This document shows positions 2,747 through 61,279 of a stretch of DNA of 64,000 bases, piece by piece (within the stretch, counting starts at the first letter, position 1; the number at the start of each line of letters is the position of its first letter). The DNA is taken from assembly GCA_038044205.1 (NCBI GenBank), contig JBBTAN010000017.1:30027-94026 (forward strand), in the 5' to 3' direction. Made by a program: the position numbers and the translations under genes. The DNA comes from Nanobdellota archaeon. GTDB lineage: Archaea > Nanobdellota > Nanobdellia > Pacearchaeales > GW2011-AR1. Below the pieces are notes generated by a model. It worked only from the letters and a program-made list of their open reading frames with translations, was not told where the DNA came from and searched no databases.

Positions 2747-3532
2747 ATGATAACAAAAGATGAGTTAGTTCAATTATGGAATTCAGATATTACTGTAGTG
2801 AAAGTTAGAGAAAAGTTAGGGAGAATTTCAGAGAGACAATTGTATAAATACCTAAAATTGTACGACATCCCCAAAAGAAAAAGGGGAGGAGTTAGGAAAC
2901 AAACGACATATCCACAAACCATAGAATCTGCTTATGTTATGGGACTTGCTATTGGCGATGGAAATATTTCTAAATTAAAAAGAACTTTAAGACTTAGATT
3001 GTATTGCGATGAAAGATATAAAAAACTTATAGATAAATGGAAGTTATCTTGTGAAAATGTATTTCAAAGAAGAGTGTCTATATCAAATCATCATTGTGGC
3101 AAATGTAAAATCATATCTATACATACTAATGCTCTTTCTACTTTTCCTTGGGAACCAAATAAAGGACATAAATGGAAGCAAAAAGTAAAGATTCCAGATT
3201 GGATAATTGAAAACGAGGAATTTTTACATGCTTGTATGAGAGGTTTGTTTGAAACAGATGGTTGTTAGTATACACAGATAATAAAAACAAAAAATCATGA
3301 ATATTGTTATGAAAGAGCTAATTTTTGCAATTCGTCAAAAGAATTAATAAAACAGGTGATAAATTATCTTAAAAAATATGATATTCATTTTTGCGTATTC
3401 AAAAGAAAATATAGAAAAGGTATCATTAGAATTACTAGACAGAAATTTAAATCTACCTCAACAAATTATGCTATTGCTGTAAATGGATATGAAAAATTAA
3501 AAGAATTGACAGGATTTGTAAAGAAGGAATAA
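2747..3532 (+). pseudogene. LAGLIDADG homing endonuclease interrupted by an in-frame TAG at 3266-3268
   Basis: motifs MGLAIGDGN and RGLFETDGC; after the TAG the same frame stays open for 87 more codons (..FCNSSKELIKQVINYLKKYDIHF..), ending at TAA 3530. Confidence 0.75.
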
Positions 3533-3539
3533 AAAAAAT

Positions 3540-3670
3540 AACAGGTTGCAATGTAGATGACCGATATATTAGGTGGGAAATGGGCCGGAGCGTCATGTCC
3601 TCCGTTATTATCTCCTTAACCGAAAGCTGCCGCCCATGCTGAAGGCTTTCCTTTTACATTGCAACCTGTT
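3540..3670 (+). ncRNA. hairpin-closed GC-rich structured element U1
   Basis: perfect 16-bp closing stem aacaggttgcaatgta 3540-3555 / tacattgcaacctgtt 3655-3670 around a GC-rich core of about 100 nt. Confidence 0.45.
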
Positions 3671-3684
3671 TTTAATTAAAAAAT

Positions 3685-3799
3685 AGAAAATAAATAATGT
3701 CCTTTGTGTGGAGCCAAGCCAGCCGGTGATAAACACACCGTTAGTTTTCTCGGCGTAGTCTGTTGCTGGTAACTGTAGGACTACTATTATTTATTTTCT
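3685..3799 (+). ncRNA. hairpin-closed structured element U2
   Basis: closing arms agaaaataaataatgtcct / aggactactattatttattttct; GC-rich core with gtgtg/cacac and ccagc/gctgg pairings. Confidence 0.4.
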
Positions 3800-3814
3800 T
3801 TTTATTTTTTATTT

Positions 3815-3909
3815 AGAAAAATAATAATATTGCTTATTGCAAACTACTTGGCCAGGATAACATGTATTTTGTTCGGCCAATTCAGTAGAAATACTATTAT
3901 TATTTTTCT
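3815..3909 (+). ncRNA. hairpin-closed structured element U3
   Basis: 15-bp closing stem agaaaaataataata 3815-3829 / tattattatttttct 3895-3909; inner ttggcc/ggccaa stem. Confidence 0.4.
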
Positions 3910-3919
3910 TTTTTATTTT

Positions 3920-4009
3920 GGCAGATGATACCGCATTGTGGCGGATAAATTGGAGCAAAATGCGCGGGATGCAATCTATTTTCCAATTTTAGGATTGTTA
4001 TCATCTGCC
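3920..4009 (+). ncRNA. hairpin-closed structured element U4
   Basis: 11-bp closing stem ggcagatgata / tatcatctgcc followed by a T run; core contains attgtggc and attttccaatt strings. Confidence 0.4.
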
Positions 4010-4024
4010 TTTTTAAATAAAAAA

Positions 4025-4107
4025 AATATATTAGTTCTCTTTTGTGTAGAGTGTCATTTAACCGCCTATAATGACAACAAATTCATCCAATTTGTAGCTA
4101 ATATATT
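4025..4107 (+). ncRNA. hairpin-closed structured element U5
   Basis: closing stem aatatattag / ctaatatatt; inner stem gtcatt/aatgac. Confidence 0.35.
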
Positions 4108-4189
4108 TAAAACAAAGTCACTTGTAGTGAGGGAATGGAACGAATAGATAGTGAACTGCGCTTCCCATCTATCTAAAACCCACAATCCC

Positions 4190-4229
4190 GCCAGATGAAT
4201 CTCCATATAATCTGGCCTTTGTTTTTTTA
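4190..4229 (+). terminator. hairpin plus T-run closing the noncoding array
   Basis: gccagat 4190-4196 / atctggc 4210-4216 followed by ctttgttttttt. Confidence 0.5.
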
Positions 4230-4241
4230 TTAGGGAGAAAA

Positions 4242-20403: not shown

Positions 20404-20438
20404 ATGCCCGGAAGATGGTCGGTTGGGGGTCATATTAT
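20404..20438 (+). promoter_or_regulatory. motif-1 element (ATGCCCGGA-N20-TATTAT)
   Basis: exact 9-mer; motif 2 follows 20 nt later. Confidence 0.6.
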
Positions 20439-21603: not shown

Positions 21604-22029
21604 ATGGGATGGTGTGGCTATGGTATTTACGATGGAGATGACACCCAAACTTGTCATTTAGATTTCATTAAATGGGCAAAAATTCCAGTTGATGAAGATA
21701 TTGTTTTCGATAACTGGATAAAGTCAGGTATTAAAACTACTATCCCTGCTAAATATAGAAAATTATTTAAAAAAAATATTAATTTTGTTATTAAAAAGAT
21801 ACCTGGAAATAAAAAATTTAATGAAGATACTGCTATTGAGTGGCAAATGCTATTATCTTTATTTTTAGATTCTAACATTGTTCCACCTGTCAATATTAGA
21901 AAAAATGGGATTGCTGCTACTGAATATTTGCTTGGTGAACATGCTGAAGAGTTTGATAAACCTGGAATTAGAAAAAGGATATTAAGAAATTTTATTAAAC
22001 GCGCAGAAAAAACAAAAAAGATAAAGTAA
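21604..22029 (+). CDS. hypothetical protein, N-terminus resembles DUF4259-type MGxWGxGxxDxD
   Basis: MGWCGYGIYDGDDTQT; family assignment from memory, weak. Confidence 0.6.
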   Translation: MGWCGYGIYDGDDTQTCHLDFIKWAKIPVDEDIVFDNWIKSGIKTTIPAKYRKLFKKNINFVIKKIPGNKKFNEDTAIEWQMLLSLFLDSNIVPPVNIRKNGIAATEYLLGEHAEEFDKPGIRKRILRNFIKRAEKTKKIK

Positions 22030-22035
22030 TTAAAA

Positions 22036-22173
22036 TTAGATATATAGTTATTTGTACGAGCTTTGCCACTATATATCTAAACTGTCTATGCTCGACCGAG
22101 GCAGCATTAAAATGGAAAATAGATAACGTTTATTTATTTTTTGTTTCAATGGTGAGTAGGAGGGCGTTTTTTT
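22036..22173 (+). ncRNA. structured tandem repeat unit A
   Basis: 13-bp hairpin ttagatatatagt 22036-22048 / actatatatctaa 22068-22080 with a GC-rich loop; shares order and 3' block aatggtKAGgaRRRGSc with unit B. Confidence 0.45.
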
Positions 22174-22177
22174 AGAA

Positions 22178-22310
22178 TTAAATATATAGTATTGTTAATC
22201 CGCCTCTACTATATATTTAAACCGTCTAATCCGCCTTTTCTGAGACGGCATTAATAAAAATATATAACCCCTTATTTATTTTTATTTAATGGTTAGGAAA
22301 AGGCTTTATT
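22178..22310 (+). ncRNA. structured tandem repeat unit B
   Basis: hairpin ttaaatatatagt 22178-22190 / actatatatttaa 22208-22220 (G-C of unit A replaced by A-T); second hairpin ccgtct/agacgg; aatccgcc occurs in both loops. Confidence 0.45.
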
Positions 22311-22401
22311 ATTTTTATTTCTGTATATTGTTATCATATACAGTGGATTGAAACCAGAAACGCCACTAAACGCATTGTAGACCACGGAGAACCATTTTTC
22401 A

Positions 22402-22437
22402 ATGCCCGGAGGGATTAGACCTACCGCGTCCTATTAT
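22402..22437 (+). promoter_or_regulatory. motif-1 element (ATGCCCGGA-N21-TATTAT-N5-GTGGC)
   Basis: the only copy with a 21-nt spacer. Confidence 0.55.
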
Positions 22438-22486
22438 CGACCGTGGCAATCAATTCTTTTTATTTTCACACAAAAAGGAAAAATTT

Positions 22487-22741
22487 ATGTCAATTAAACA
22501 ATTAAGATCAATATCAAGCAGACAAGTAAGCATGTTATTTTATTACTATAATTTATCTAAAGAAAAAGAAAATTATCCAACTGCTCAACAAGAAATTAAT
22601 TATCTTTGTAGTCTTGGTTATATGAAATTTAATGAAAAAGATAAAAAGTTTGAATTGACGACAGAAGGAAGACAAGAAGTAGATTGGCTTATGTTGGAAG
22701 CCAATGAAGCATTCGAGAAATTTGGAGAGGAGAAGAAGTAG
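22487..22741 (+). CDS. small hypothetical protein, possible winged helix
   Basis: 84 aa; LCSLGYMKFNEKDKKFELTTEGRQEV resembles 26127 (LADQGLIDYGDKNWKITDEGKKEI). Confidence 0.6.
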   Translation: MSIKQLRSISSRQVSMLFYYYNLSKEKENYPTAQQEINYLCSLGYMKFNEKDKKFELTTEGRQEVDWLMLEANEAFEKFGEEKK

Positions 22742-23086: not shown

Positions 23087-23650
23087 ATGGCACTCAATGA
23101 ACAGTTCAAGACAGAGCGAATTAAGCGTGGATTGAGTCAATGTTTGTTTGCCAGGGCACTTAATACAAATCAGGCTTATATTTCTATGATGGAGAGTGGA
23201 AAGAAACCTATTACTGAATCTGAATTTGTTGATATTCTGAAAAAGTTGACTGAATATGATGAAAGGATTAAAAATCCAGTTACCATTGCTCCAGTTGTTG
23301 AGAAGAAAGAAATTGTAATTGAGAAGGTTGAGAAACCTGATATTGTTGTTCCTATTTCTGAAAATGTTGAAATTGTTTATCATCAAAGAACTATTGAAGA
23401 GATGATAAAAGAATATAAAGACAAGGGGTATACTAATTTGCAGATTATGTGCATTGTCAATTCAAGTCGTTGGATTAAAAAGGCTAATGAATTTAGAAAG
23501 TTGTTGGGTATTGATACTATTGGCGTTGATGAAGCTGTAGAAGTTGAGGATAAGGAAGAAGTTAATGAAATTATTGAAGAAGATGTTTTTAACGAGAGTA
23601 TTGTTGAAGAAAATAACAATGAAATAGAAGAGACAGAGGAAATTGTGTAA
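23087..23650 (+). CDS. XRE/Cro-type helix-turn-helix protein with acidic tail
   Basis: KTERIKRGLSQCLFARALNTNQAYISMMESGKKPI is a classic HTH_3 pattern; no TTA codon seen. Confidence 0.8.
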   Translation: MALNEQFKTERIKRGLSQCLFARALNTNQAYISMMESGKKPITESEFVDILKKLTEYDERIKNPVTIAPVVEKKEIVIEKVEKPDIVVPISENVEIVYHQRTIEEMIKEYKDKGYTNLQIMCIVNSSRWIKKANEFRKLLGIDTIGVDEAVEVEDKEEVNEIIEEDVFNESIVEENNNEIEETEEIV

Positions 23651-26339: not shown

Positions 26340-26714
26340 ATGAAAATTTACAACAAGAGGGAAATGGCTGATGTTGTTCTTTCTAGTCTTATTTCTATAG
26401 TTAAGAAATATAGAAATAAGAATCATATTGAAATTGGTTCTTATCAGAATGGTCGAGAACAAGGCCATTCTATTATTCTTTGGAATCAGGATAATTTTAA
26501 TAGTAAATGGATTGCTTTTTCTGAATATAGAAATTCAGATGAATTAGTTGTTTATGAAAGTAGACATGATCCTATGCAGGGATTAACTGATTCAGCCTGG
26601 GAAAATAAGAAATTTTATAATTTTGATAAAAAGGGCAAGGGATATAAGAATGCTATTGTTATCTTTGATATGATTAAAGAATTTTATACTGTAAAAGAAG
26701 TTGTGAATAACTAA
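26340..26714 (+). CDS. hypothetical protein
   Basis: 124 aa with SD. Confidence 0.65.
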   Translation: MKIYNKREMADVVLSSLISIVKKYRNKNHIEIGSYQNGREQGHSIILWNQDNFNSKWIAFSEYRNSDELVVYESRHDPMQGLTDSAWENKKFYNFDKKGKGYKNAIVIFDMIKEFYTVKEVVNN

Positions 26715-28161: not shown

Positions 28162-28434
28162 ATGGAAAAGAATGCTGTCAACATGTTGCCTCTTGTTATG
28201 TATCCTGAAAATGATATGTATCCTGATGAAAAGTATTCTCATATTATCATGATTGTTGAAACTCATTCTAAAAATAAGAAAGAACTTACAGATAATGCCA
28301 TGAAATTCCTCAAAGAACATAATTTCTTTGATGTTATGAAAAATGGGGATTTGTGCCAAGTTCTTGTAGCTAGTAATAAAATCCAACCTATGCAGTTGCC
28401 TATTAAACTCAAAGATGAAACAACTACTGTCTAA
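28162..28434 (+). CDS. hypothetical protein
   Basis: ATG 28162 after SD aaaaaggagaagaaa. Confidence 0.6.
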   Translation: MEKNAVNMLPLVMYPENDMYPDEKYSHIIMIVETHSKNKKELTDNAMKFLKEHNFFDVMKNGDLCQVLVASNKIQPMQLPIKLKDETTTV

Positions 28435-28491
28435 TATAAAAAATTATAAAATAAATAGGCAATAATATCGTGTCTCGCTGTATTATTGCCG

Positions 28492-28523
28492 ACAACCTCA
28501 TCATTGTGGTGAGGTTGTTTTAT
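28492..28523 (+). terminator. rho-independent terminator-like hairpin
   Basis: acaacctca / tgaggttgt followed by tttt; preceded by a second hairpin ggcaataata / tattattgcc at 28458-28490. Confidence 0.6.
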
Positions 28524-28648
28524 ATATTATTTTTATTTTTATTTTCCAGTCCACGTTTGCCGTAAATATAATATATTTTATTTTTATTATTTTTATTTTA
28601 TTATAATATATATTATTTATTTATATTTAAACAACAAAGGAGAAATAA

Positions 28649-36155: not shown

Positions 36156-36319
36156 ATGGGAACCAGGAGCATCACTGTTATTGAAGAGGATGGAGAGGCT
36201 CTTGTGAGCATTTACAGACAGATGGATGGATATCCAATGAAGTAGTTGAAGTTGAATATATCGGGAAAGCAAAGGATGGTATGACGGATGGACTTATAGT
36301 TTCTTCTTTTAATGGTTAG
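36156..36319 (+). pseudogene. chimeric gene remnant
   Basis: a 29-codon N-terminus MGTRSITVIEEDGEALVSIYRQMDGYPMK stops at a TAG ending at 36245; an overlapping frame encodes EVVEVEYIGKAKDGMTDGLIVSSFNG, which matches the C-terminus of family A. Confidence 0.55.
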
Positions 36320-60751: not shown

Positions 60752-61279
60752 ATGACAAGTGTTGATCTTTGTCCAAGGATATATGTTGCTTCTCTTGCTG
60801 ATTACAATAATGGTAATCTTCATGGAATTTGGATTGATCTTGATGAAAATACTGATGTTGATGAAGTTTTTGAGAAGATTAATAAAATGCTAAGTGAATC
60901 TAAATATCCTGTTGCAGAAGAGTTTGCTATACATGATTATGATGATTTTGGAGGTATGGAAATTAATGAAAATGAATCAATTGAAAATGTAGTTGAAATG
61001 GCTAATTATCTTACTAAACATGGTGAAGCCTTTGCTCTTTGGTCTAATAATGTTGGGTTTGAAGGAGCTAAAGATAATTTTGAAGAGGCTTATGTTGGAC
61101 ATTATGATTCTAAAAAGCAATATGCTGAACAGTTTGCTGATGATATTTATTCAGCAAAGGATTTGGGAGAATTAGCTATTTATATTGATTGGGAAAAGTA
61201 TGCTGATGATTTGTTTAGTAATGATTATTGCGATATAGAAGGTAATAGATCTGGTATTTATGTCTTTCGTAACATCTAA
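60752..61279 (+). CDS. ardA: ArdA antirestriction protein (DNA mimic, anti type I R-M)
   Basis: CPRIYVASLADYNNGNLHGIWIDLDENTDVDEV..VAEEFAIHDYDDFGG..YIDWEKYADDLF..IYVF matches the ArdA family signature closely; highly acidic. Confidence 0.9.
   Translation: MTSVDLCPRIYVASLADYNNGNLHGIWIDLDENTDVDEVFEKINKMLSESKYPVAEEFAIHDYDDFGGMEINENESIENVVEMANYLTKHGEAFALWSNNVGFEGAKDNFEEAYVGHYDSKKQYAEQFADDIYSAKDLGELAIYIDWEKYADDLFSNDYCDIEGNRSGIYVFRNI

What the first reader, a model, noticed from the sequence alone, without database searches (positions are those of the whole stretch)
22036..22310. Tandem pair of diverged structured units of about 135 nt with a compensatory base-pair change
Units A (22036-22173) and B (22178-22310) share the same order of parts: a 13-bp AT-rich hairpin, then a second GC-containing hairpin region, then a T-rich tract, then AATGGTKAGgaRRRGSC.

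The first stems differ by a G-C to A-T double substitution that preserves pairing: ttaGatatatagt/actatatatCtaa versus ttaAatatatagt/actatatatTtaa. The hairpin loops are GC-rich and unit-specific. In unit B both loops carry AATCCGCC. In unit A the first loop (CGAGC..TGCC) is complementary to GCTCG..GGCA in the second region, allowing a loop-loop or pseudoknot contact.

A further hairpin (ctgtatat/atatacag, 22321-22343) and a motif-1 copy follow. This is a candidate sRNA pair or a protein-binding regulatory module.
Basis: seen in the sequence. Interest (0 to 1): 0.6.

Follow-up and report, generated by a model that had tools for sequence, protein, structure and literature searches.

The report
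Duplicated hairpin module between phage operons
Two diverged tandem copies of a ~142-base non-coding hairpin module lie between two operons of a ~500-kb groundwater phage; they probably fold in the RNA and help end or process the upstream transcript, but no relatives exist to test this.

Summary
Units A (22034-22174) and B (22176-22320) are paralogous tandem copies inside a 457-nt non-coding gap. Each has the same three hairpins followed by a purine-rich tail and a U-tract. Stems are conserved (HP1 arms 24/26) and loops are not. HP1 and HP2 each carry one compensatory double substitution.

The "AATGGTKAG..." motif closes HP3 and runs into a tail that can pair with the HP2 loop. That pairing gives a 72-78-nt hairpin that abuts the U-tract. 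"Motif-1" is a recurrent phage promoter-like element, ATGCCCGGA-N20/21-TATTAT.

No Rfam family matches. There is no further copy in 84 kb of this phage and no relative in public collections. The same HP1 core in IMG/VR phages turned out to be NrdR operator boxes, and the units fail that family's critical positions.

Best reading (confidence ~0.4): a duplicated RNA-level module at the end of an operon, made of stabilising or processing hairpins plus weak, non-canonical terminators, sitting upstream of the next promoter. A 3'UTR-derived sRNA pair, a DNA-binding site and a neutral relic remain open. Interest is modest.

The parts
22034..22174 (+). Unit A (whole module)
   Evidence: Alignment with unit B. 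nhmmer 128.8 bits and CM 164.5 bits. RNA MFE -39.3 kcal/mol, z -3.67.
22036..22080 (+). HP1-A: 13-bp perfect AT-rich stem with a 19-nt GC-containing loop (UAUUUGUACGAGCUUUGCC)
   Evidence: Inverted repeat I5, 100% complementary. Predicted in the MFE and in the consensus fold.
22082..22104 (+). HP2-A: CUGUCU / AGGCAG 6-bp stem (one G-U pair) with an 11-nt loop AUGCUCGACCG
   Evidence: Consensus fold of A and B. It is an alternative to the long hairpin.
22105..22151 (+). HP3-A: ~22-bp A-U/G-U hairpin (CAUUAAAAUGGAAAAUAGAUAA cgu UUAUUUAUUUUUUGUUUCAAUG). It has 4 G-U pairs on the + strand.
22089..22166 (+). Long hairpin A: a basal helix (UGCUC..CC / GG.GGGCG) encloses HP3 and abuts the U7 tract
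   Evidence: MFE structure. -24.3 kcal/mol, 9th of 394 distinct T-tract-anchored hairpin sites in the window. The basal helix alone is not above chance (p 0.31).
22167..22173 (+). U-tract A (TTTTTTT)
   Evidence: Sequence.
22176..22320 (+). Unit B (whole module)
   Evidence: RNA MFE -33.8 kcal/mol, z -4.49.
22178..22220 (+). HP1-B: 14-bp perfect AT-rich stem with a 15-nt loop carrying UAAUCCGCCU
   Evidence: Inverted repeat I2.
22222..22248 (+). HP2-B: CCGUCU / AGACGG 6-bp stem with a 15-nt loop AAUCCGCCUUUUCUG (second copy of UAAUCCGCCU)
22249..22291 (+). HP3-B: ~19-bp A-U hairpin
22233..22304 (+). Long hairpin B: a 9-bp basal helix GCCUUUUCU / AGGAAAAGGC encloses HP3 and abuts the U-rich tract
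   Evidence: MFE. Duplex -12.2 kcal/mol, shuffle p 0.014. -21.4 kcal/mol, 17th of 394 sites.
22305..22320 (+). U-rich tract B (TTTATTATTTTTATTT)
   Evidence: Sequence.
22321..22343 (+). Extra 8-bp hairpin CUGUAUAU uguuauc AUAUACAG. It is not a recognisable third unit.
   Evidence: The alignment with the units is unconvincing.
22402..22437 (+). Phage promoter-like element ('motif-1'): ATGCCCGGA (22402-22410), 21 nt, TATTAT (22432-22437). It lies 50 nt upstream of the ATG at 22487.
   Evidence: 12 exact ATGCCCGGA copies plus one with a single mismatch, 13 matches in all, all on the + strand, against 3.0 expected by chance. In most copies TATTAT follows at 20-21 nt, and the element lies a few tens to about 120 nt upstream of a start codon.

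Best explanation
The two units are tandem paralogues of a cis-acting RNA module at the 3' end of the operon that starts at the promoter-like site at 20404 and ends with the 141-aa gene (21604-22029).

The proposed mechanism runs as follows. The units are transcribed on the + strand as the 3'UTR of that operon. Each unit folds into a 13-14-bp A-U hairpin (HP1), a short G-C-containing hairpin (HP2) and a ~20-bp A-U/G-U hairpin (HP3). The purine-rich tail then pairs with the pyrimidine-rich HP2 loop and closes a 72-78-nt hairpin directly in front of a U-tract. This would act as a weak, non-canonical intrinsic terminator, and the long double-stranded segments would also serve as a 3'-end protecting or processing structure. 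Having two such modules in series would insulate the next transcription unit, which has its own phage promoter at 22402.

What is shown:
- the duplication;
- the hairpins and their statistical support;
- selection on pairing;
- the position between an operon end and a promoter-like element.

What is inferred:
- transcription of the units;
- the strand;
- termination or processing activity;
- any role for the unit-specific loops.
For: - The region is non-coding. Indels between the units are not multiples of three, and no ORF with an SD is shared by the units.
- Stems are conserved and loops are not: HP1 arms 24/26, HP2 9/12, HP3 36/44 identical, against HP1 loop 10/21, HP2 loop 7/15 and HP3 loop 1/4.
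- Each of HP1 and HP2 has one double substitution that keeps a Watson-Crick pair.
- HP1 loop length differs (19 vs 15-17 nt). A hairpin tolerates this; a rigid two-site DNA complex would not.
- In both units the MFE places a long hairpin directly before a U-tract. It is favoured by 7-8 kcal/mol over HP2+HP3. The two hairpins rank 9th and 17th of 394 T-tract sites in the window. The unit B basal helix has p 0.014.
- All called genes in the window are on the + strand. The U-tracts follow the hairpins only on that strand. Unit A's HP3 uses four G-U pairs.
- Elsewhere in the window the same promoter-like element is preceded by a hairpin with a U-tract (53043 and 61335). Between 22029 and 22402 the only candidates for that role are the units.
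Against: - By classical criteria the terminators are poor. The hairpins are long and A-U-rich, at about -0.3 kcal/mol per nt. Unit A's basal helix is 6 bp with two G-U pairs and is not above chance (p 0.31).
- The phage uses short GC-rich canonical terminators elsewhere (48150, 35196, 41551 and 28491).
- HP1 and the shared or complementary loop motifs have no assigned role in this model. The 9-mer AAUCCGCCU occurs in both unit B loops (p about 0.001).
- HP1 arm sequence, not only its pairing, is conserved. This suggests sequence-specific recognition.
- z-scores do not separate the strands.
- Only two sequences exist, so covariation rests on two events. Intra-palindrome template switching could produce symmetric changes in HP1 without selection.
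- No expression data are available.
Confidence: 0.4

Rival explanations
1. The units are trans-acting small RNAs or RNA decoys. They would be released from the 3'UTR of the upstream operon, or made from an unrecognised promoter. The conserved stems serve as a scaffold. The unit-specific C/U-rich loops (GCUUUGCC and GCUCGACC in A; AAUCCGCCU twice in B) act as seeds or protein-binding motifs. The long hairpin plus U-tail is the sRNA terminator.
For: - A conserved scaffold with divergent, GC-richer loops.
- The same 9-mer is displayed in two loops of unit B and occurs nowhere else in 64 kb.
- The structure is significant.
- The region is an early-type block of small + strand genes that includes ArdA. 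Such regions are where phage counter-defence factors are expected (my inference).
- Another non-coding stretch of the same phage (3535-4240) is a chain of strongly structured modules. The genome therefore appears to encode other structured RNAs.
Against: - No promoter-like element precedes either unit. The only sigma-70-like match (TTGCCA-N18-TATGCT) is inside unit A, is absent from B, and would start transcription inside the long hairpin.
- There is no Rfam hit even at E<=10.
- No convincing complementary target was found in the window (only chance-level 1-mismatch matches).
- The loop relationship differs between the units: complementary in A, identical in B.
Confidence: 0.2
2. HP1 acts as double-stranded DNA. 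Four copies of the 13-mer TTARATATATAGT in alternating orientation would be binding sites for a regulator. Candidates are the host NrdR, the small winged-helix-like protein encoded just downstream (22487-22741), or the HTH_3 protein at 23087-23650. Binding would control read-through or the promoter at 22402.
For: - The arm sequence is almost invariant while the spacer is free.
- The 13-mer occurs only here in the window.
- Unit A reads ATTAGATATATAGTTA-N15-CCACTATATATCTAAA. This matches the inner halves and the 15-bp linker of NrdR box pairs.
- Two NrdR box pairs in tandem are known in Listeria (PMC13584703).
- The downstream 84-aa protein gives weak winged-helix signals: Pfam HTH_45 E 0.013, and Foldseek top hits are all wHTH regulators.
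Against: - C4 of box 1 and G13 of box 2, which are critical for NrdR binding (PMC13584703), are absent in both units.
- The linker is 13 bp in unit B.
- No RNR gene is nearby.
- 10 of 12 key positions is reached by about 19 other sites in the window by chance.
- Arm centre-to-centre distance is 32 bp in A and 30 bp in B.
- A symmetric double substitution is not expected for independent half-sites.
- The model does not explain why HP2, HP3 and the tail are also conserved as stems.
- The sites lie 180-370 bp upstream of the promoter.
- The wHTH assignment is below every significance threshold: Foldseek E >= 0.15, pLDDT 72.
Confidence: 0.15
3. The units are a neutral or decaying relic. A recent tandem duplication of an intergenic stretch (an old gene junction, terminator or small mobile element) has no present function. 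The palindromes are maintained by DNA-level processes rather than by selection.
For: - Only one locus exists in 84 kb and there are no relatives anywhere.
- The tail resembles an ordinary gene junction of this phage, with a stop codon followed by an SD. Compare TTTAATGGTTAGAAAAGGAGG at 36308.
- The genome carries other local duplications.
Against: - Loops are near-randomised while stems keep 82-92% identity and full pairing. This is not expected under neutrality.
- Two compensatory double changes are present. My estimate of the combined chance is roughly 5e-4 to 5e-3, if wobble intermediates are not counted (one search gives the looser bounds).
Confidence: 0.15
4. Each unit encodes a tiny peptide starting at the ATG of AATGG: MVSRRAFF* in A and MVRKRLYYFYFCILLSYTVD* in B. 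This would resemble a type I toxin.
For: - Both ORFs begin with MV-(S)-R-(K/R)-R, and the B peptide is hydrophobic.
- The start codon is sequestered in HP3, as in some type I toxin mRNAs (my knowledge).
Against: - There is no SD, although the genes of this phage have strong AAGGAG sites.
- The unit A ORF is 8 codons long.
- The unit B ORF runs through the U-tract and the next hairpin.
- Indels between the units are not in frame.
Confidence: 0.03

Closest known systems
Tandem intrinsic (Rho-independent) terminators at operon ends, and terminator-then-promoter junctions as in T4 early/middle transcription units
   Same: - A hairpin directly followed by a U-tract on the coding strand.
- Two such elements in series after the last gene of an operon.
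- A phage-specific promoter-like element follows within about 100 nt.
   Different: - The hairpins are 72-78 nt long, A-U-rich and interrupted, not short GC-rich stems.
- The phage has canonical terminators elsewhere.
- Each unit carries two extra upstream hairpins that a terminator does not need.
Intercistronic RNase III processing hairpins of phage T7 early mRNA (R sites)
   Same: - Long interrupted hairpins of about two helical turns in non-coding gaps between genes of a unidirectional early region.
- They would leave a 3' hairpin that stabilises the upstream message (my knowledge of T7).
   Different: - There is no sequence or structural homology.
- No evidence exists for RNase III cleavage, or that the host has that enzyme.
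- T7 R sites are single hairpins, not three-hairpin modules.
NrdR operator (two 16-bp NrdR boxes, acaCwAtATaTwGtgt, 15-16-bp linker)
   Same: - The core ATATATAGT / ACTATATAT is identical.
- Unit A has a 15-bp linker.
- Two pairs lie in tandem, as in the Listeria nrdAB promoter (PMC13584703).
- Homologues of the upstream 141-aa gene sit in phage nucleotide/NAD-metabolism clusters, which is where NrdR boxes occur.
   Different: - The outer half of each box is not palindromic. C4 (box 1) and G13 (box 2) are missing in both units.
- The linker is 13 bp in unit B.
- There is no RNR operon downstream.
- The score is at chance level for this AT-rich genome.
Repetitive extragenic palindromes (REP/BIME) in 3'UTRs
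   Same: Imperfect or perfect palindromes clustered in tandem just after a stop codon. They are thought to stabilise upstream mRNA or to attenuate transcription (my knowledge).
   Different: REPs are about 35 nt long and occur in tens to hundreds of copies per genome. Here only one locus was found in 84 kb. The unit is 142 nt with three different hairpins.
Small stable RNAs of unknown function in phage tRNA regions (T4 species 1/2, rnaC/rnaD) and C-rich-loop sRNAs of Gram-positive bacteria (e.g. RsaE)
   Same: - Structured RNAs of about 100-140 nt encoded in phage non-coding DNA.
- Pyrimidine/C-rich motifs are displayed in hairpin loops and repeated within one RNA.
   Different: There is no homology (Rfam), no own promoter was detected, and no target was identified.

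Membership tests
NrdR box pair (NrdR operator) | Six highly conserved positions (C4, A6, A8, T9, T11, G13) in each 16-bp box, with C4 and G13 critical in both boxes (PMC13584703) | tested here: not met
   Unit A boxes are ATTAGATATATAGTTA / CCACTATATATCTAAA. Unit B boxes are ATTAAATATATAGTAT / CTACTATATATTTAAA. Each box scores 5/6. C4 is missing in box 1 and G13 in box 2, in both units (consensus). Another 19 chance sites in the window reach the same 10/12.
NrdR box pair (NrdR operator) | Linker of 15-16 bp (rarely 14, or 26-27) between the boxes | tested here: inconclusive
   The linker is 15 bp in unit A and 13 bp in unit B.
NrdR box pair (NrdR operator) | Location in the promoter region of a ribonucleotide reductase (or other nucleotide-metabolism) operon | tested here: not met
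   The downstream genes are an 84-aa ORFan, a 79-aa ORF and an HTH_3 protein. No ORF of RNR size occurs in the window. The sites lie 180-370 bp upstream of the promoter-like element.
Intrinsic (Rho-independent) terminator | A stable hairpin whose 3' end abuts a U-tract on the transcribed strand, downstream of a gene | tested here: met
   Long hairpins 22089-22166 (+U7) and 22233-22304 (+UUUAUUAUUUUU) rank 9th and 17th of 394 T-tract sites.
Intrinsic (Rho-independent) terminator | A short GC-rich stem (typically 5-12 bp, loop 3-8 nt) next to the U-tract | tested here: not met
   The tool's terminator scan finds none in 22030-22486 on the + strand. The hairpins are 72-78 nt long at about -0.3 kcal/mol per nt. 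Unit A's basal helix is not above chance.
Intrinsic (Rho-independent) terminator | Transcript 3' ends at the U-tract | not testable with these tools
   No expression data are accessible.
Any Rfam family (sRNA, riboswitch, ribozyme, tRNA-like) | Covariance-model match at or near the gathering score | tested here: not met
   No hit in the region at gathering thresholds. The best hits at E<=10 are 10-21 bits against thresholds of 37-130. ARAGORN finds no tRNA or tmRNA here.
Bacterial/phage trans-acting sRNA gene | Own promoter and own terminator delimiting a discrete transcript | tested here: inconclusive
   A terminator-like end is present. No conserved promoter was found. Release from the 3'UTR cannot be tested.
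Type III antitoxin RNA / CRISPR array (tandem-repeat RNAs) | Near-identical short repeats (about 28-45 nt) in tandem next to a toxin or cas gene | tested here: not met
   The period is 142 nt with about 75-80% identity and only two copies. Neighbouring proteins have no such families.

The most novel reading that the evidence does not exclude
The units are a new class of phage-encoded modular RNAs. An invariant three-hairpin scaffold displays exchangeable, unit-specific C/U-rich loop sequences, with two copies of AAUCCGCCU in unit B. These loops would act as programmable seeds or decoys against host or phage RNAs or proteins. The RNAs would be made from the 3'UTR of an early operon in a 500-kb phage.
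Probability: 0.15. Interest if true: 0.6.

Novelty: new member of a known kind. Interest (0 to 1): 0.3.

Why it matters
If the module is an RNA 3'-end element, it shows how a very large, AT-rich environmental phage punctuates its long unidirectional early region. It would use long A-U hairpins and U-tracts placed in front of a phage-specific promoter, alongside canonical terminators. That helps in annotating transcription units in huge-phage genomes, which are almost entirely ORFans.

If the loops instead act in trans, this would be a rare example of a duplicated, diversifying regulatory RNA in a megaphage.

A practical lesson also came out of the work. The AT-rich inverted repeat ATATATAGT-N19/20-ACTATATAT, seen widely in large phages of IMG/VR, is a pair of NrdR boxes and not a hairpin. 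Similar-looking palindromes need to be checked against that operator before they are called RNA structures.

Tried and rejected
- **Known RNA families.** Rfam at gathering thresholds and at E<=10 gave nothing. ARAGORN found nothing in the region.
- **Relatives through flanking proteins.**
  - IMG/VR scans found none.
  - The upstream 141-aa protein has 22 homologues at 44-58% identity. The six whose contigs I inspected lie in other phage contexts without the gap or the units.
  - The downstream 84-aa protein is an ORFan.
- **Relatives through DNA patterns.**
  - The 21-mer ACTATATATYTAAACYGTCTA has 0 hits in IMG/VR.
  - The HP2 core pattern gave 3 + 2 chance hits in GTDB genomes and JGI metagenomes. 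The phage's own contig is not in those collections.
- **Population variants.** Four other assemblies that cover the gap (ENA and Logan contigs from Hainich well H43 samples) are 100% identical over the 457-nt gap.
- **More copies in the same genome.** nhmmer and a covariance model with filters off found none. This covered the window and 10 kb beyond each window end. The marginal hits at 26385 and 24487 are a coding region and an ordinary terminator.
- **A third degenerate unit at 22310-22460.** The alignment is unconvincing.
- **Units as decayed copies of the motif-1 promoter.** Only 3-4 of 9 positions of the ATGCCCGGA box match (my reading). A 15/18 match between 22086-22103 and 22431-22448 (D6) is of borderline significance by my estimate.
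- **tRNA 3'-end or attP-like fragments.** I considered CTCACCATT on the minus strand and AATCCGCC as a T-arm. There is no T-loop and no acceptor pairing, so I rejected this by inspection.
- **NrdR operator.** It fails C4/G13 and the context requirement.
- **Small peptides or a type I toxin.** There is no SD and the ORFs are not conserved.
- **Loop complementarity to other sites in the window.** Matches are at chance level.

Full report
**Context**

The window is 29% GC. All credible genes are on the + strand, and it holds four tRNA genes. Proteins encoded in the window are found on a 499,814-bp contig from Hainich groundwater well H43 (ENA ERZ1292626), deposited in GenBank under a Nanoarchaeota MAG label. 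The gene content is RNA ligase, DUF932, ArdA, an HTH_3 regulator and a neighbouring TnpB. The best, distant, hits are to huge phages. This is therefore a very large phage, and the window looks like an early-type block of small ORFan genes.

The finding lies in a 457-nt non-coding gap (22030-22486), the second largest in the window. The gap sits between a 141-aa gene (21604-22029) and an 84-aa gene (22487-22741).

**The observation**

- The HP1 arms are perfect inverted repeats: 13 bp with a 19-nt loop in unit A, and 14 bp with a 15-nt loop in unit B.
- The two units align end to end.
- A profile or covariance model built from them finds both units and nothing else.

A segment-by-segment comparison shows the key pattern.

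| Segment | Identical positions between A and B |
|---|---|
| HP1 arms | 24/26 |
| HP2 stem | 9/12 |
| HP3 stem | 36/44 |
| HP1 loop | 10/21 (after gapping) |
| HP2 loop | 7/15 |
| HP3 loop | 1/4 |

The only two differences in the HP1 arms are the paired G-C to A-U change. HP2 (CYGUCU/AGRCRG) has a second compensatory change, U-A to C-G, plus a G-U to A-U change.

Simulation shows that mere retention of pairing after that many random substitutions is not very rare, because wobble pairs count: 4-28% for HP1 and 2-23% for HP2. Hitting both partners of one pair in each helix is much less likely. My estimate is about 1-4% for HP1 and 3-13% for HP2. With only two sequences this is suggestive, not proof.

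**Anatomy, revised**

After HP3 comes a purine-rich tail, GUGAGUAGGAGGGCG in A and GUUAGGAAAAGGC in B, and then a U-tract, U7 in A and UUUAUUAUUUUUAUUU in B.

In the minimum-free-energy fold of both units the tail pairs with the pyrimidine-rich HP2 loop. This gives a 72-78-nt hairpin that ends exactly at the U-tract. That fold is 7-8 kcal/mol better than HP2+HP3.

I scanned all T-tracts in the window for hairpins anchored at the tract. These two rank 9th and 17th of 394 distinct sites.

The basal helix is significant in B: 9 bp, -12.2 kcal/mol, p 0.014. It is not significant in A: 6 bp with two G-U pairs, p 0.31. HP2 and the basal helix overlap, so they are either alternatives or a pseudoknot. 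I cannot decide between these.

Its two segments are in the wrong order for one helix, and it is absent in B. Unit B has a different feature instead. It carries the 9-mer AAUCCGCCU in both loops (p about 0.001), and these are the only two exact AATCCGCC in 64 kb.

**Surroundings**

"Motif-1" is ATGCCCGGA.

- There are 12 exact copies plus one copy with a single mismatch, all on the + strand, against 3 expected by chance.
- In most copies TATTAT follows at 20-21 nt, a T-rich stretch precedes the box, and the element lies a few tens to about 120 nt upstream of a start codon.
- I read it as a phage-specific promoter: an upstream box plus a -10-like hexamer. This is an inference from position and recurrence.
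- The copy at 22402-22437 serves the 84-aa gene. Another copy at 20404 heads the three-gene operon that ends at 22029.
- At two other copies (53043 and 61335) a canonical GC-rich hairpin with a U-tract lies just upstream.

In the gap studied here the only structures in that position are the units. The phage does have canonical terminators elsewhere, at about 48150, 35196, 41551, 28491 and 24488.

**Search for relatives and further copies**

None were found.

- Flanking-protein and DNA-pattern scans of IMG/VR, JGI metagenomes and GTDB genomes gave nothing or chance hits.
- Homologues of the 141-aa protein exist, but they sit in other phages. There they lie next to NAPRTase, dUTPase, IMPDH, DnaB or RNR genes, without the gap.
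- The 84-aa protein has no homologue at all.
- Other assemblies of the same phage are identical across the gap.
- A covariance model with filters off finds no further copy in the window, nor in 10 kb beyond each window end.

**An instructive false lead**

The hits are not random. Of 128, 98 have a spacer of 19-20 nt, and the flanks are complementary. A literature search for the two 9-mers led to NrdR.

The NrdR repressor binds two 16-bp palindromic boxes, acaCwAtATaTwGtgt, separated by 15-16 bp. C4, A6, A8, T9, T11 and G13 are highly conserved, and C4 and G13 are critical (PMC13584703). The IMG/VR elements fit this exactly. One example is ATACCATATATAGTAT-N16-ATACTATATATGGTAT in L055, next to NAD-salvage genes.

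The units match only the inner half-boxes.

- C4 of box 1 and G13 of box 2 are missing in both units.
- The linker is 15 bp in A but 13 bp in B.
- No RNR gene is nearby.
- 10/12 at the key positions is reached by about 19 other sites in this AT-rich window by chance.

I therefore do not file HP1 as an NrdR operator.

**DNA-level versus RNA-level**

In favour of a DNA site:

- the near-invariant arm sequence with a free spacer;
- the uniqueness of the 13-mer in the window;
- a possible small winged-helix protein encoded just downstream. The signals for this are Pfam HTH_45 E 0.013, an AF2 model at pLDDT 72, and Foldseek top hits that are all wHTH regulators but with E >= 0.15. None of these is significant.

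Against a DNA site:

- the arm spacing differs by 2 bp between the units;
- the symmetric double substitution is not expected for independent half-sites;
- HP2, HP3 and the tail show the same stem/loop conservation pattern;
- the sites are far from the promoter.

Strand evidence is weak. z-scores are similar on both strands. However, unit A's HP3 needs four G-U pairs on the + strand, the U-tracts follow the hairpins only on the + strand, and all genes are on that strand.

**Verdict**

The feature is real, non-coding and probably under selection for pairing.

My best explanation (about 0.4) is a duplicated RNA module at the end of an operon. It would consist of stabilising or processing hairpins plus a weak, non-canonical terminator, placed before the next phage promoter.

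The rivals are:

- a 3'UTR-derived sRNA or decoy pair with unit-specific loops (about 0.2);
- a DNA-binding site cluster (about 0.15);
- a neutral relic (about 0.15);
- tiny peptides (about 0.03).

The element belongs to no described family. As a kind of thing, hairpin and terminator punctuation between phage operons, it is ordinary. The repeated loop motif and the conserved HP1 sequence remain unexplained. Expression data for this contig, or more copies from the rest of the 500-kb genome, would settle most of this.

Noticed in passing
window 11002, 11810, 20404, 22402, 23767 (1 mismatch), 29107, 31875, 39243, 45772, 49100, 53043, 55205, 61335 (+ strand): Recurrent promoter-like element: (T-rich)-ATGCCCGGA-N20/21-TATTAT. 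It has 13 matches against 3 expected by chance, all on the + strand. In most copies TATTAT follows at 20-21 nt and the element lies a few tens to about 120 nt upstream of a start codon. It is probably a phage-specific promoter class with an upstream activator or sigma box.
   Followed up: partly
window 1919, 7545, 11935, 12391, 20459, 28057, 39182, 53094 (+ strand): Second recurrent intergenic motif, CCAAYTGATCCGA (10 matches with at most 2 mismatches, against 1.2 expected). It often lies 40-60 nt downstream of the ATGCCCGGA element or upstream of an ATTAT-like hexamer. It may be another promoter or regulatory class. It is not present in the gap studied.
   Followed up: partly
window 3535-4240 (inside the 973-nt non-coding gap 3269-4241, downstream of tRNA-Leu at 2627-2717): A chain of about six structured modules of 90-125 nt. 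Each is closed by a long 13-19-bp stem around a GC-richer core, and several are followed by T-runs. The fold has z -6.6, and there is no Rfam match even at E<=1. These are candidate small stable RNAs or processing units of the tRNA region.
   Followed up: partly
IMG/VR loci L015-L134 (e.g. L055:1400-1447): The inverted repeat ATATATAGT-N19/20-ACTATATAT is frequent in 90-180-kb phage contigs, with several loci per genome. It is a pair of consensus NrdR boxes with a 15-16-bp linker. In L055 it lies next to NAPRTase, NMNAT-like and NAD synthase genes. These phages appear to put nucleotide/NAD genes under the host NrdR repressor.
   Followed up: partly
window 22362-22447: The GC-richer stretch just upstream of and overlapping the promoter-like element folds into a cloverleaf-like shape closed by GCCAC/GUGGC (z only -1.3 on +, -2.4 on -). 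ARAGORN and Rfam do not call it. It is probably not an RNA gene.
   Followed up: partly
window 21604-22029 and loci L007, L008, L011-L014, L140: The 141-aa upstream protein belongs to an unannotated family (no Pfam or PHROG match). The family is spread in diverse phages and typically sits next to nucleotide/NAD-metabolism genes (NAPRTase, dUTPase/DCD, IMPDH, RNR) or DnaB.
   Followed up: partly
window 28432-28545: An operon end built as an 11-bp AT-rich hairpin with a GC-rich 12-nt loop (GGCAATAATAT...), directly followed by a canonical terminator hairpin and a long T-rich tract. This is the same 'AT hairpin with GC loop, then terminator' layout as the units, without sequence similarity.
   Followed up: no
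L142:8744-9826 (- strand; about 175 nt upstream of window position 1) and window about 60752-61279: A TnpB-like gene (OrfB_IS605 + Cas12f1-like_TNB) lies just outside the window start. An ArdA anti-restriction gene lies inside the window. This is consistent with an early counter-defence region.
   Followed up: no
window 4868-5167/5176-5475; 41952-42375/46157-46586; 12120-12315/12919-13111; 14213-14300/14983-15070: Several local duplications of coding sequence at 70-83% identity, giving paralogous small genes. Tandem and dispersed duplication is common in this genome.
   Followed up: no
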